NCBI GenBank assembly: GCA_951406725.2
Contig: OX597821.1
Coordinates: forward strand, 23,188,001-23,252,000
Length of the DNA stretch: 64,000 nucleotides
Direction of reading: 5' to 3'
From: Octopus vulgaris
Lineage: Eukaryota
The notes beneath the pieces are model-generated. The model was not told the DNA's origin, did no database searches, and saw nothing but the letters and a program-made list of their open reading frames with translations. Shown here one piece after another: positions 15,997-58,811 of this stretch. The position numbers and the translations under genes were made by a program. Positions within the stretch are counted from its first letter, which is position 1. Each line of letters starts with the position of its first letter.

Positions 15997-16031
15997 GTTT
16001 CCGACAAAGAGCTATGCTTGAAACGTTAAAC
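15997..16031 (+). ncRNA. Degenerate minimal hammerhead ribozyme motif (same family as 36781-36815)
   Basis: GUUU CCGACAA A GAGC UAU GCUU GAAAC GUU AAAC; core G8 is mutated. Confidence 0.5.
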
Positions 16032-16114
16032 CCCTTCCTTTCACCGAGCATTGGTTTTCTTCTTTTTTCGTTTTTATCCATTTATTTGAATTGTTTGTTT
16101 ATCTGAAGTGACTA

Positions 16115-16321
16115 TATACATACATACATACATACATACATACATACATACATGTATGCATGCATGCATGCATACACACATACATACATACATACATACA
16201 TACATACATACATACATACATACATACATGGATGCATGCATACACACATACATACATACATACATACATACATACATACATACATACATACATACATACA
16301 TACATACATACATACATACAT
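16115..16321. repeat. (CATA)n microsatellite
   Basis: Direct reading. Confidence 0.95.
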
Positions 16322-17232
16322 GTGTGTGTGTGTATATATGTATATGTAGCCGTATGCTTTGATACAATACACCTTAACAGAATTTTTTCGACTCGGAGTC
16401 CTGTTAAAATTCCACTCCTATATCCTTATTGTGTTAAATCGTATTACCCAAGCTAGGTTGTTATAAAAAAGAGTCACGTAATATAGTTGTGTAAGATAAT
16501 CCTTACATGACTTCTAGAAACTCGCGTATTAAATGCATTCAAAATATAACATTTGGTTTTGTCGGTATTCTTTTACATATATATTATATTATATTATATT
16601 ATATCAAAAATGAACTTCAATCTTGTTTGCTTGTAATGTTACACGGCCAAACTGGCGCGTAATGGGAAAATACTAAGAATCAAGGCTCCTCTGAAATGTG
16701 AATATAAACGGAATAAAACAAGTTTCGTGTAACCGGAGAACTGGTTCTTGAGATATTGGGTGGGGAGTGCACCAAAATAGTGCATAATGGGAAAATACTT
16801 CGAAAACAACTTAACCCTGAAAGGGAAGAAACTCTAACCTTTCGATTAGACACATTATGATGGGCAAAAGTCTTAGTGACTTTAAGTTGCCAACGAAAAA
16901 ATACGAGTTGTTTTTTACAGTAAATGTTTCTATTTTCACTTTTGTTAAACACAATATTTTAAATATTTAGAAATATTTTTAAGTGAATGTGATTTCAAAA
17001 ATGCAAGTTGTTTGTACAATAAGTATTCATATTTTAGCTTTCTCTAAACAGACAATATTTTAATCTTTTTAAAAATTATTTTCAAGTGAATACCATTACA
17101 AAAATTTTTTTGGCATATTTAAAAAATATTTTAAAGTGAAAATTACTTTTAAAATACGGTAAATTCGTAACCTCACTGTGAAATAACTTTTTCTATAGGT
17201 TTTTTTAAAGTGATTCAACGTAACTCATCGCT

Positions 17233-17350
17233 AAAGATTTGGCTGCTATTTTAGCACGCCTTGCTACCACGTAACACTCATTTGCGATAAAGGAACCGAA
17301 ATTGCTGTTACGTTGTAGTAGGGCGTACAAGAAATAGCAGCCAAATCTTT
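17233..17350. repeat. 118-bp imperfect hairpin of a dispersed old repeat
   Basis: aaagatttggctgctattt / aaatagcagccaaatcttt arms with inner pairing; the same motif recurs near 8510, 11260, 19730, 21540 and 32150. Confidence 0.65.
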
Positions 17351-17656
17351 CCTTTTCTGGGGAAAGGAACCGTTTACACGTGATTTCGATGTCACATTCG
17401 TTGAAAGTGAAATAACTTGGAAAAGAAAAAACTCCAAGAAACAAAACTCCGCTTTCTTTTCGGGAAGAAAGTGACTTACGGTGGATTTGGAGGTGAGATA
17501 CGTTGAATGAACTCGAAAAAAAACCTGTGGAAAAAATTATTTCATACCGAAGTACAAACGGGTATGTTGCGTTCTTTTCCATTTTGGGGATATATATATA
17601 TATATATATATATATATATATACATACACATACATACATATATACATACATATATA

Positions 17657-18929
17657 CGAGGGGCGTTCAATAAGTAATGCCCCTGACCCACTTCCCATAG
17701 CAGTAGAGCAACGAAACTTGGCACAGTTATTAGTCTTTTTCTACATAAGAACCATCCAGAGTTACGCATTTCTCCCATTGCTTGATGCAGCTCTGGAGAC
17801 CGTTTTTGTAGAAGACCCCAGCTTGGTCCTCCAACCTGAACGTGACTTCAGAAATCAAGGCTGCATCATCTGGGAAACGCTTTCCTTTCAAAAACAACTT
17901 CATGACTGGGAAGAGGTGAAAATCAGAGGGTGCAAGGTCAGGAAAGTAGGGGGATGGGGGAGGAGTTCATAGCCATACGCCTGTGCTTCTGATCTGGCGA
18001 CAAGCGAGTTGTGGACCGGAGCGTTGTCCTGCAGGAGGAGGATGCCTTTGCTGATCTTGCCCCGCCTCTTGATTTTGATAACTTCTCTTAATTTCCTCAA
18101 AAGTGAAGCATAATAGGCTCCTGCAATTGTGGTACCCTTTGCCAGGAAATCTGTCATCACTACTCTGTCCTGGTCCCAGAAGACTGTGAGCATGACCTTG
18201 CCAGCGGAGGGCTGCACCCTTGCCTTCTTTGGAGGGGGTGAGTCACAGTGCTTCCACTGCATTGACTGGGCTTTGGTCTCTGGATCATCGTGATGGACCC
18301 AGGTTTCATCCTGTGTAATCAGTCTTTTGAAAAATTTTGACTCATCTTCTTGGCACATCTCCAAATTCACCCTCGAGCACTCGACGCGTTCTTGCTTCTG
18401 GAAAGGCGTGAGCAACCTGGGAATCCATCTGGCAGACACCTTTTGCATATGCAAATGGTCATGAATGATAGTTTCCACAGACCCGGTACTAATCTTGACC
18501 TCATGGGCTATTTGGCGAATAGTTATGCGTCGATCTTCCAAAATGGCAGCCTCAACTTGACAGACAGAAGGGGGCGACCAGATCTGGGAGCTGTTTCCAC
18601 AGAGTTCCGACCATGTTTGAATTCACGATGCCAGCGTTTTACAAGGTCATATGATGGGGCATCATCACCATAAGTTATTTTCATTTCATCAAAAGTCTCC
18701 CGTGGTGTGCGTCCTTTCAAATACAAAAACCGGATCACTGCTCGACACTCAACAGGCTCCATTTCACACTTGACTCGGTTCAAACACCTGTAAATCAGAA
18801 ACCACAATTAATTCAGAGCTGTAATTTGCCACTTACTCTATAGAGATATAAATGATTGCACATGCAAAATTTCAGCTAGATCAAACAACTGCAAGTGGGT
18901 CAGAGGCATTACTTATTGAACGTCCCTCG
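17657..18929 (-). mobile_element. Full-length mariner transposon (~1.27 kb)
   Basis: TIRs cgaggggcgttcaataagtaatgcccctgacccactt / aagtgggtcagaggcattacttattgaacgtccctcg, with TA on both sides inside (TA)n. Confidence 0.95.
17730..18762 (-). pseudogene. Mariner DD34D transposase, frameshifted
   Basis: MEPVECRAVIRFLY..PRSGRP / WIPRLL / ITQDETW / LLQDNAPVH / HPP..PDLAPSDF / WEKCVTLDGSYVEKD*. Frameshifts near 18560 and 17950. Confidence 0.92.
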
Positions 18930-56351: not shown

Positions 56352-56560
56352 ATTTGTTTGCTTCAGTCATTTGACTGTGGTCATGCTGGAGCACCGCCTT
56401 TAGTCGAACAAATCAACCCCAGGACTTATTTTTTGTAGGCCTTGTACTTATTCTATCGGTCTGTTTTGCCGAACCGCTAAATTACGGGGACGTAAACACA
56501 CCAGACACTAGCATCGGTTATCAAGCGATGGTGGGGACAAACACAGACACACAAACGTAT
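56352..56560 (-). mobile_element. SINE family A 3' half
   Basis: Antisense of the body and tail. Confidence 0.8.
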
Positions 56561-56595
56561 ATGTATATATATATATATATATATATATATATATA

Positions 56596-57112
56596 TAAAC
56601 AAAGATAAATGCGATACAATAAAATTAATTATAATCGCCGGTGTATCAGTACACGCCATATATTATTCATATATCATTACATTCAAGGCGAAGAGTGAAC
56701 TAGATACACAATAGCTGGATAAATTTAGTGAGATGAAAATTAAAAACTTTTACAAACTTAGCTTTTCTTAAACTGCAGTTTCGCCAAATTCAGTAATAAA
56801 AATAATATTTATTTACTCAGGCTGGCTCTTCAGTAAGATTCCTGTTAATGATGGGAAGACCATATCAATAGACCCATGTGCGTCTATTGAAATGCTCTTT
56901 CTAAACTATTCAAAACACTGCGCAGACTCAGAACAAACCCGACAAAATAGGGGATTGTGGTATATCGTCTAACGGTCAGAAATTTATCGAGAGAATATGT
57001 AAACAAAGATAAATGCGATACAATAAAATTAATTATAATCGCCGGTGTATCAGTACACGCCATATATTATTCATATATCATTACATTCAAGGCAAAGAGT
57101 GAACTAGATACA
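56596..57112 (-). mobile_element. Retrozyme-like element: 404-bp unit plus 113-bp terminal direct repeat, within (TA)n
   Basis: 56596-56708 equals 57000-57112 with one mismatch; carries an intact hammerhead; no ORF. Confidence 0.8.
56766..56838 (-). ncRNA. Type-I hammerhead ribozyme, intact core
   Basis: UCUUA CUGAAGA GCCA-(long loop)-UGGC GAAAC UGCA GUU^UAAGA; predicted cleavage between 56771 and 56770. Confidence 0.85.
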
Positions 57113-57738
57113 ATATATATATATATATATATATATATATATATATATATATTATTCATCAAGTATTAAAGGTTGCCGTGGTTATGTAAAATCCAATCCA
57201 AAAGACAACGTGGATCAAGTAGGTACTGTAAGTTTAGAGTGAATACTTGATAAGTGTAAACACCTGTATATGCCAGATAGTGGCAGAGGTGAGAGAGAAT
57301 AGATCAAACGTATCTACAGTTACACCCTAGTAAACATATACATACACAACCATATTGTTAATTTGCTACTCCCTTTTATCACTTATATTTATTTCCTTTC
57401 TTTTTAAATCATTTCCTTTATTGATCATCCCTCATTTCAACTTGTTGTTACTTAATACCAGGTCTATTGGATTTGTCATAGACACATGTAAAAAACCTTT
57501 TTTTAAAAACTTTAAAAACTTTTATAAACTTTTAAAAACTTTTAAATATATGGAGCTCAATCTATTGAGAATAGTATATTAAATATAACTGTTACGTACT
57601 CAAAAACAAGATATACACTTGTAAGGTGTATTGTATGTGTGCATACATCGATGGACGTGCGTGAATGTTTGCAGATACTTTACAAGGAGACGCAATTTTT
57701 TTCTATCCTTGTTTCTCTCCTTGTTTCTTTTCTGTGTA

Positions 57739-57776
57739 TCTTTCTGTCGAAGAGCGTAGGCTCGAAACGTAAAAGA
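57739..57776 (+). ncRNA. Minimal hammerhead motif (CUGUCGA core)
   Basis: UCUUU CUGUCGA A GAGC GUAG GCUC GAAAC GUA AAAGA, in a repeat ending at (TA)n near 57873. Confidence 0.6.
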
Positions 57777-58710
57777 CTTGTTTTATTTCTATTCCTGAGC
57801 GCCATACTAATACATTGTTTGTTTGTACTCCACCTGCCTTCGTCTTTTGTTTATTTTCACAAACCTTCCCGTTATATATATATATATATATATATATATA
57901 TATATATATATATATATATATATATATATCAGTACGTGTGTTTAAGGATATGTGGATATGGTTGTGTATGTATATGTTTACTAGGGTGTAACTGTAGATA
58001 TGTGTGGAGATGTATGTATAGATTCATGTATTTAAAGCTGTGCATAATGAGGCATACTTGTAAACGCTCGATCATGTTAGCATATATATCTGTACGAGTG
58101 CGTGTGTGTGTACACACATATACATATACTATGACTTCTAAGTAAGAGGATGGATCCATGTAATAGGCAAATTTATAAAGCTAGTAATATCTAGTGGTGA
58201 GTTTGGGTAAACTGACCATTCATCACAATGATATCAAATTACAATCTTAATCTATTAATCAACGAGTGGTCAAACTAAGATATTTATGACCACTACCATC
58301 TCATCAAAGCCCAAATCCTGTTCTCAGCTCTATATCTCTTATCTCTTTATCTCTTATTCTACTTTATGTTTTTATTTATTTTTATTTCTTTTGTTACTTT
58401 ATTCCAATTTTGCTAAATCTTATTTATTATCCTTATTTTTACTTTTATTACTCTTGTATTTACTTCTATTACTTTTATTTCTTTCTTTATTTTTTTCTTT
58501 CTATCTTATATACGCTAATTAAATATAAATTCAATCCAATCTATTTAACATTCACTCTATGCTGAGTGGTGGTACAGTATGGGCACATGTTTGAAATCCA
58601 ACGAACCTTTATACAAATATACTTTTTCAAGGCGATATGATAGACCTATTATAATGGGTAATACTACGCGTACTTCTTATTTTGTGATGTAATCTTTGTA
58701 CTAACAATGT

Positions 58711-58811
58711 TTGCGGATGAAGAGAGCTTTAAACCAACATTTATATCAATAATATACCTATGCTGATGTAATAACAGATTGTTTATAAAGCTTGAAACAC
58801 GTGTACCGCGA
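58711..58811 (+). ncRNA. Type-I hammerhead fold with long stem II and a C3A change
   Basis: GCGG AUGAAGA GAGCUUUA...UAAAGCUU GAAAC ACGU GUA CCGC; about 35 bp from (TA)n. Confidence 0.65.

What the first reader, a model, noticed from the sequence alone, without database searches (positions are those of the whole stretch)
15997..58811. Six distinct hammerhead-bearing short repeat types in one 64-kb window, plus a Penelope RT
Seen: hammerhead folds with different stem sequences at 36781 (with a degenerate sister at 15997), 36275, 42483, 56766, 57739 and 58711. Each keeps stem I and stem II pairing and GAAAC..GUH, and most lie near (TA)n. A Penelope RT fragment begins at 63743. Known: Penelope-like elements carry minimal hammerheads in their terminal repeats. 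Inference: about one ribozyme fold per 10 kb points to a large, diverse Penelope/retrozyme system in this genome, and intact copies inside introns could cleave host pre-mRNA.
Basis: partly seen in the sequence, partly recalled or inferred. Interest (0 to 1): 0.75.

Follow-up and report, generated by a model that had tools for sequence, protein, structure and literature searches.

The report
Penelope retroelement hammerheads with altered core
The hammerhead-shaped RNA folds are real and sit in short leftover ends of Penelope-like jumping genes (shown for two families, likely for four more) plus one small tandem repeat, which is a known arrangement; the twist is that one intact, recently spread jumping gene carries a changed 'invariant' letter in over 15,000 copies, which is predicted to slow self-cutting.

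Summary
Shuffles give 0.3 on average. All are type-I hammerheads with a self-complementary stem III, in repeat families ending at (TA)n. An unbiased 400-kb sample gives 1 per 19 kb, so this window is about twice the average.

Two families (57739, 36781) are 5'-truncated 3' ends of Penelope-like elements (PLEs). 56766 belongs to a young 404-bp tandem retrozyme. The RT at 63743 is real, but its family carries another hammerhead (U3-A8 core) and is the source of none of them. This is the known PLE-hammerhead system.

The twist: the 57739 family has U at 'invariant' A6 in 15,730 of 16,332 pattern matches, including both pseudo-LTRs of intact full-length PLEs. Only N7 and H17, the two free core positions, vary among its subfamilies. 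The 36781 family has U4C in 73 of 100 listed copies. These ribozymes are likely attenuated, not dead.

Cleavage of host pre-mRNA is unsupported: no host exon was found, only two window copies have a perfect core, and such minimal folds are reported to need dimers.

The parts
15997..16031 (+). Degenerate hammerhead remnant related to the 36781 family (U4C plus G8A); likely dead
   Evidence: 44-bp match at 86% to the 36781 copy; 1,576 bp from the nearest (TA)n
36275..36358 (-). Type-I hammerhead with a long stem II and a U.U mismatch at 10.1-11.1 that is shared by the family; short element (about 36243-36480) beside (TA)n, inverted partial copy at 36477-36504
   Evidence: (2 of 2 other copies share U.U); no PLE ORF seen next to it
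36781..36815 (-). Minimal hammerhead, U4C core variant with an extra A after A9; in the 3' end (about 36683-37000) of a PLE lineage; predicted cut after 36785; inverted partial copy at 37084-37157
   Evidence: 12,654 family matches, C4 in 73 of 100 listed; C4 and U4 are subfamilies; same-strand PLE coding upstream in 4 of 12 long copies
37309..37392 (-).
   Evidence: family 89-94% identical, perfect core in 12 of 25 loci; minimum-energy fold is the hammerhead fold; no PLE ORF within 1.5 kb in 14 hits
42483..42528 (-). Minimal hammerhead; this copy has G5A (likely dead), family core canonical; a second, inverted, more decayed copy lies at 42768-42945 (+)
   Evidence: (G5 in 9 of 9 copies outside the window); 4 copies in 400 kb of unbiased sample
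56591..57112 (-). 1.29 units of a young 404-bp tandem non-coding repeat (non-LTR retrozyme) between (TA)n tracts; one perfect-core hammerhead at 56766-56838, GUU here but GUA in the family
   Evidence: arrays of up to 5 units, 98-99% identical, longest frame 85 codons; 64 exact matches, 63 GUA
57688..57873 (+). 5'-truncated 3' pseudo-LTR of an intact, young Neptune/Nematis-type PLE; minimal hammerhead 57739-57776 with the family-wide A6U core; predicted cut after 57771; ends in (TA)n
58711..58811 (+). Hammerhead with a long stem II; this copy has C3A and 11.1 C>U (C3A private, likely dead); family core canonical
   Evidence: C3 in 3 of 3 other copies
63710..64000 (+). 5'-truncated PLE RT with an in-frame stop; continues beyond the window through thumb, CX4CXXC linker and GIY-YIG; its 3' end, about 1.5 kb outside the window, carries a decayed U3-A8 hammerhead unrelated to the eight above

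Best explanation
The eight folds are type-I hammerheads carried by short, (TA)n-flanked ends of Penelope-like retrotransposons (shown for the 57739 and 36781 families, likely for 36275, 37309, 42483 and 58711) and by one 404-bp tandem retrozyme, and in the parent RNA they likely cut slowly as dimers. Shown: full-length parents have the layout pLTR-ORF-pLTR with a hammerhead in each pLTR about 4.5 kb apart; copies share a fixed 3' end about 100 nt past the predicted cut and vary at the 5' end. Inferred: the GIY-YIG endonuclease nicks (TA)n, RT starts at the fixed point and usually aborts after 200-400 nt, which leaves the hammerhead behind as debris. Two folds pair through the palindromic stem III, probably helped by the PLE protein, and release unit-length RNA. 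Every copy reads across the cut site, so the template was uncut or re-ligated there. A slow ribozyme would therefore be tolerated or favoured, which would explain why A6U and U4C lineages spread to more than 10,000 copies while keeping the rest of the core. Solitary genomic copies are likely mostly inert.
For: 8 folds against 0.3 in shuffles. Two features not required by the descriptor: a palindromic stem III in 8 of 8 here and 137 of 158 distinct hits in 1.63 Mb of fetched loci, and C3U with G8A in 7 of 8 C3U hits. 11 of 20 long-ORF loci that I picked from 150 have 1,015-1,200 open codons with RT, CX4CXXC, GIY-YIG and CCHH; 12 of the 20 show paired pLTRs, all with U6 in both, 11 of 12 at 93-99% identity. 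U6 in 15,730 matches against 602 non-U, of which 71 of 100 listed are C, a transition. With the core left free, U6 in 96 of 100 listed. In 58 distinct copies found by the flank alone, only N7 and H17 of 36 columns are polymorphic, against 29 of 98 flank columns; G17 is 132 of 15,730. U4C family linked to a sister PLE in 4 of 12 long copies. Literature: dimer requirement and low activity (PMC4209133); protein assistance, and insertion unaffected by catalytic mutants (PMC11167929); A6C and U4C are slow but not dead (PMC3088659, PMC7151607).
Against: No cleavage was shown. Four families have no PLE ORF within 1.5 kb in any hit examined, so they may be non-autonomous. Fisher tests on subfamily consensuses were not significant (2 of 36 vs 16 of 98, p 0.15; 8 of 36 vs 39 of 98, p 0.07). 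Loop II, which need not be fixed, is also conserved in the A6U family, so protein or promoter recognition could explain part of the constraint; counting loop II as free, the chance that the two variable columns are both free ones is about 15 in 630 rather than 1 in 630. A deep mutational scan found low activity for all CUGA-turn mutants but the C3-G8 swap (PMC9901934). The 404-nt unit folded as a circle is no more stable than shuffles (z -0.4), unlike described retrozyme circles.
Confidence: 0.8

Rival explanations
1. The U6 and C4 folds are catalytically dead. The hammerhead shape is kept only as a recognition element (PLE protein binding, pLTR promoter or dimer/template-pairing site), or is simply inherited.
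For: Catalytic mutants do not affect PLE insertion in vitro (PMC11167929, passages). CUGA-turn mutants have low activity (PMC9901934, passages). Loop II is conserved too. In monomer folds, positions 4-6 pair with 15.1-16.2 and give an inactive rod. Subfamily-level tests were not significant.
Against: The only polymorphic columns are N7 and H17, and no subfamily has G17 (132 of 15,730), which is the pattern expected from catalytic constraint. Natural A6C and U4C variants keep some activity (PMC3088659, PMC7151607).
Confidence: 0.3
2. One reading: intact copies inside introns cleave host pre-mRNA and so affect gene expression.
For: 37309 has a perfect core and folds as a monomeric hammerhead in the minimum-energy structure. 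About 6 perfect cores per 400 kb genome-wide, so many must lie in introns.
Against: No host exon was found: 142 of 289 candidate ORFs scanned, and only transposon domains passed Pfam cut-offs. 6 of 8 copies are decayed or core-variant. Single minimal folds did not cleave in vitro (PMC4209133). Retrozymes are depleted from introns in Xenopus (10.64898/2026.07.22.740005, passages).
Confidence: 0.1
3. All seven types are non-autonomous retrozymes that spread through circular RNA.
For: The 56766 family forms 404-bp head-to-tail arrays with a hammerhead in each unit and no ORF. Other tandem pairs were seen 396 and 476 bp apart.
Against: The 57739 and 36781 families run contiguously into PLE coding sequence and vary at the 5' end. 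The other window families were seen mainly as solitary or inverted pieces.
Confidence: 0.1

Closest known systems
Minimal type-I hammerheads of metazoan PLE pseudo-LTRs (Cervera and De la Pena 2014, PMC4209133; main text read, supplement searched)
   Same: Type-I topology, palindromic 15.2-16.2 region, extra nucleotide after A9 (4 of 8 window sites), G10.1-C11.1, many families per genome, mostly solitary copies from truncated PLEs, opposite-strand pairs, U3-A8 variant.
   Different: Family-wide A6U and U4C cores are not in that paper's text or its >80% consensus. Several families here have long AU-rich stem II inserts or non-G-C 10.1-11.1 pairs. Density is about 1 per 19 kb.
Neptune/Nematis clades of EN+ PLEs (Craig et al. 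2021, PMC8557442; passages)
   Same: RT followed by a CX2-5CXXC linker and C-terminal GIY-YIG with CCHH, pLTRs, tandem and inverted pieces, microsatellite targeting.
   Different: Long (0.7-1.5 kb) low-complexity 3' UTRs, and a U6 hammerhead in an intact family. Neptune versus Nematis was not resolved by a tree.
Non-LTR retrozymes of animals (Cervera and De la Pena 2020, PMC7229834, passages; Li et al. 2026, 10.64898/2026.07.22.740005, first part and passages)
   Same: 404-bp head-to-tail non-coding units, 34% GC, one type-I hammerhead per unit; mussel units are 350-390 bp.
   Different: Low copy (64 exact matches), long stem II, circle no more self-paired than shuffles; circular RNA not shown.
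Natural core-variant hammerheads A6C (phage Bcep176) and U4C (viroid) (PMC3088659, passages; PMC7151607, main text read)
   Same: Same positions altered; slow but detectable cleavage.
   Different: Those are single sequences. Here the change is U at 6 and is fixed in more than 15,000 genomic copies and in an intact retrotransposon.

Membership tests
Minimal type-I hammerhead of PLEs | Order stem I - CUGANGA - stem II - GAAA - stem III - UH - stem I, with paired stems I and II | tested here: met
   8 of 8 sites, shuffle mean 0.3
Minimal type-I hammerhead of PLEs | Self-complementary stem III region (dimer-forming) | tested here: met
   8 of 8 although not required by the descriptor; 36275 relies on G-U pairs
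Minimal type-I hammerhead of PLEs | Canonical core at family level: 37309, 42483, 56766, 58711 | tested here: met
   window copies 42483 and 58711 carry private changes
Minimal type-I hammerhead of PLEs | Canonical core at family level: 57739 (A6), 36781 (U4), 36275 (paired 10.1-11.1) | tested here: not met
   U6 in 15,730 of 16,332; C4 in 73 of 100; U.U in 3 of 3 distinct copies. These are core variants, not canonical members
Minimal type-I hammerhead of PLEs | Self-cleavage after H17 | not testable with these tools
   needs biochemistry or raw end-mapping reads; only contigs were listed
EN+ Penelope-like element (Neptune/Nematis type): parent of 57739 | One ORF with RT and C-terminal GIY-YIG, CX2-5CXXC linker, CCHH motif | tested here: met
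   ORF printed; Pfam RVT_1 1.6e-7, GIY-YIG 0.008 (below cut-off); 28% identity over 715 aa to the 63743 family
EN+ Penelope-like element (Neptune/Nematis type): parent of 57739 | Direct pseudo-LTRs with a hammerhead flanking the ORF | tested here: met
   12 of 20 selected loci, spacing 4,380-4,573 bp
EN+ Penelope-like element (Neptune/Nematis type): parent of 57739 | Phylogenetic placement in Neptune rather than Nematis | not tested
   no reference set was fetched; the label rests on the linker motif described in PMC8557442
EN+ Penelope-like element: parent of 36781 | Hammerhead end contiguous with PLE coding sequence | tested here: met
   4 of 12 long copies, 42-75% identity in pieces to the 57739 parent; no intact ORF seen
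EN+ Penelope-like element: parents of 36275, 37309, 42483, 58711 | Hammerhead end contiguous with PLE coding sequence | tested here: inconclusive
   0 links within 1.5 kb, but few copies and short flanks were examined
Non-LTR retrozyme (56766) | Head-to-tail short repeats, type-I hammerhead in each unit, no ORF, low GC | tested here: met
   arrays of 4-5 units of 404 bp, 34% GC, longest frame 85 codons
Non-LTR retrozyme (56766) | Highly self-paired circle | tested here: not met
   circular MFE -78.6 against shuffle mean -76.4, z -0.4; this lowers strict membership, not the working likeness
Non-LTR retrozyme (56766) | Expressed as circular RNA | not testable with these tools
   no listed holder on record as RNA

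The most novel reading that the evidence does not exclude
An intact, recently active PLE lineage has fixed U at hammerhead position A6, and a sister lineage C at U4, as a selected brake on self-cleavage. The ribozyme still cuts (N7 and H17 vary freely, G17 is avoided), but only slowly, or only with the PLE protein or another cation, so that enough uncut template survives for reverse transcription. U6 would be an undescribed natural core class, present in more than 15,000 copies and perhaps in other animals, that standard descriptors miss.
Probability: 0.3. Interest if true: 0.62.

Novelty: new variant of a known kind. Interest (0 to 1): 0.42.

Why it matters
What PLE hammerheads do is stated to be unclear (PMC8557442), and catalytic mutants still insert in vitro (PMC11167929). 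An intact PLE that spread widely with U at a supposedly invariant position is a ready natural experiment: the protein, both pLTRs and canonical-A6 relatives all lie in one genome. Descriptors that demand CUGANGA would also miss the two most abundant families measured here. The abundance itself (about 1.4 x 10^5 folds by extrapolation) is comparable to what is already reported for other animals.

Tried and rejected
Rfam scan: no hammerhead among the 150 listed of 265 matches, which were microsatellite hits. The repeat finder was swamped by microsatellites. Sequencing runs: no RNA holder listed. Contigs of 4 guessed-RNA runs cover the 404-bp unit, and in 2 of 4 a 434-nt contig closes on itself; tandem DNA gives the same picture, so it is not used. 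Whether the window lies in a host gene stays open: the Pfam scan of 142 of 289 candidate ORFs found no host domain above cut-off, and no read-based exon map was obtained. The idea that the RT at 63743 is the parent of the short repeats was rejected. The idea that L054/L055, 3.5 kb apart, flank a PLE ORF was rejected (no PLE match). U4C as mere CpG noise was rejected: C4-C4 flanks are 85.5% alike, C4-U4 80%. A U6 pattern in viral contigs gave 6 hits, none forming the fold. Subfamily Fisher tests were not significant; 8 of 84 alignment rows without hammerhead homology and 18 duplicates were dropped before the counts on 58. Lunse et al. 2017 and Arkhipova et al. 2017 were not held, so they may already list U6; what I know of them is recalled only. 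No cross-family covariation count was made on stems I and II because the descriptor forces their pairing.
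Full report
Setting. The window is G000:C8:23188001-23252000 in a 2.8-Gb genome of 227 contigs. It is rich in microsatellites and transposon pieces: a LINE ORF at 38415-41369, a Helitron and a mariner. I read it as octopus-like from size and recalled repeat sequences; no call names the organism.

Observation. Shuffles give 0.3; the strict descriptor gives 3 against 0.005. All 8 have a self-complementary stem III, which the descriptor did not require. 7 of 8 lie within 250 bp of (TA)n, against 32% of random positions. 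Only 37309 and 56766 have perfect cores. In 40 evenly chosen 10-kb stretches there were 28 hits, 21 palindromic, against shuffle means of 3.15 and 0.4; 6 of 28 had a perfect core. That is about 1 fold per 19 kb, or roughly 1.4 x 10^5 by extrapolation, so the window is about twice the average. In all 1.63 Mb fetched (not a random set), 137 of 158 distinct hits are palindromic, and C3U goes with G8A in 7 of 8 cases. This is the known compensatory core pair and was not forced by the search.

The 57739 family. The copy has U at position 6. This is not decay: 15,730 exact matches have U6 and 602 have another base, by eye 71 C, 19 A and 10 G in the 100 listed. With the core left free there are 17,677 matches, U6 in 96 of 100 listed, and all four bases at N7. 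Copies end at one fixed point about 100 nt after the predicted cut, then (TA)n, and vary at the 5' end. Longer copies run into PLE coding sequence. A protein search led to long ORFs; of 20 that I picked from 150, 11 have 1,015-1,200 open codons with RT, a CX4CXXC linker, GIY-YIG and CCHH. 12 of the 20 show two pLTRs about 4.5 kb apart, all with U6 in both and 11 at 93-99% identity. So an intact, young PLE carries U6. Two copies with canonical A6 sit behind PLE coding only 65% identical to it, which suggests, but does not show, that A6 is ancestral.

Constraint on the U6 fold. I collected copies by their downstream flank alone: 84 rows, 8 without hammerhead homology and 18 duplicates dropped, 58 kept. 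Only N7 (heterozygosity 0.70) and H17 (0.49) of 36 columns exceed 0.3, against 29 of 98 flank columns; leaving out the young full-length set gives the same two columns. These are the two positions that the hammerhead core leaves free. G17, which blocks cleavage, occurs in 132 of 15,730. Against this: subfamily-level Fisher tests were not significant, and loop II is conserved as well, so recognition by protein may contribute.

The 36781 family. 12,654 matches; C4 in 73, U4 in 25 and A4 in 2 of 100 listed. C4 and U4 copies form separate subfamilies. 4 of 12 long copies have same-strand PLE coding upstream, related to the U6 parent; none is intact. The stems differ from the U6 family by a C-G to G-C swap in stem I and a different loop II. 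15997 is a remnant of this kind.

The 56766 family. A 404-bp unit occurs in head-to-tail arrays of up to 5, 98-99% identical, with a perfect core in each unit and no frame over 85 codons. There are 64 exact matches, 63 with GUA; the window copy alone has GUU and is 1.29 units long with one fold. It fits a non-LTR retrozyme, though its circle is no more stable than shuffles.

The other four. 42483 and 58711 have canonical cores in other copies, so the window copies are decayed; 36275 shares its U.U mismatch with relatives. 37309 has a perfect core in 12 of 25 loci, and its minimum-energy fold is the monomeric hammerhead. None showed a PLE ORF within 1.5 kb. Inverted partial copies beside 36275, 36781 and 42483 and (TA)n flanks are PLE-like, so I infer PLE ends or PLE-dependent elements.

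The RT at 63743. It is a truncated, interrupted copy of a young family with intact 811-851-codon ORFs elsewhere. That family's pLTR carries a U3-A8 hammerhead, and its protein is 28% identical to the U6 parent. It shows PLE activity in the genome but is the parent of none of the eight folds.

Mechanism. Shown: layout, copy numbers, core variants, fixed 3' ends. From the literature: minimal PLE folds cleave weakly and only as dimers (PMC4209133, main text read); a PLE hammerhead needed the PLE protein, and catalytic mutants still inserted (PMC11167929, first part and passages); A6C is slow in Mg2+ and faster in Mn2+ (PMC7151607, main text read); U4C is slow yet viable in a viroid (PMC3088659, passages); CUGA-turn mutants are weak (PMC9901934, passages). 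Inferred: target-primed reverse transcription at (TA)n that aborts early scatters the hammerhead ends. Every copy spans the cut site, so templates were uncut or re-ligated there, and slow variants would be tolerated or favoured.

Intron claim. No host exon was found (142 of 289 candidates), so whether the window lies in a gene is open. Six of eight copies are decayed or variant, and all are solitary. Only 37309 is a plausible monomer cutter.

Novelty. Abundant PLE hammerheads and retrozymes are known, with up to 120,000 copies in axolotl (PMC7229834, passages). A 2026 repeat annotation of Octopus vulgaris lists Penelope families and has no occurrence of 'hammerhead' or 'ribozyme' in its main text (PMC13282606, passages). 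Searches for 'hammerhead' with 'Octopus', 'A6U' (the one hit concerns twister), 'U4C'/'A6C' and 'Neptune'/'pLTR' found no description of a U6 family. Lunse et al. 2017 and Arkhipova et al. 2017 were not held, bioRxiv supplements are closed, and one supplementary file of PMC4209133 was not searchable; any of these may bear on the claim. One metagenome contig from another organism holds a U6 fold with different stems and no PLE ORF: a single weak hint that U6 occurs elsewhere.

Verdict. A real observation of a known system, with one testable variant. Interest 0.42.

Noticed in passing
   Followed up: yes
L208-L215 (e.g. L210:1253-4998); window 63710-64000: The PLE family at the window's end has a second ORF of up to 495 codons overlapping the start of the RT-EN ORF, with no Pfam match, and a U3-A8 hammerhead with only a 2-3-bp stem II.
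   Followed up: partly
L316:2459-2500 (-): A U6 hammerhead fold with different stems in a contig from another organism, no PLE ORF nearby.
   Followed up: partly
window 57739-57776 and 36781-36815: In predicted monomer folds, bases of the core strand pair with the stem III palindrome and give a rod; U6 adds a U6-A15.1 pair. It may act as self-inhibition.
   Followed up: no
window 38415-41369 (+), 25264-26703 (-), 17903-18622 (-), 51123-51641 (-), 53349-53624 (-): A 985-codon LINE ORF (endonuclease plus RT), a Helitron helicase piece, a Tc1/mariner transposase piece, another RT piece and a DUF4817 piece.
   Followed up: no
L029:11-478, L232:375-851, L260:757-1316: Other hammerhead families in same-strand pairs 396, 476 and 559 bp apart: probable further retrozymes.
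   Followed up: no
loci L022-L315: Many families have A-U, U-A, U.U or A.A at 10.1-11.1 instead of G-C (39 of 137 distinct palindromic hits are not G-C).
   Followed up: no
L073:738-1532 (-), just upstream of the window: A 265-codon frame with a weak C2H2 zinc-finger match; possibly a host gene piece.
   Followed up: no
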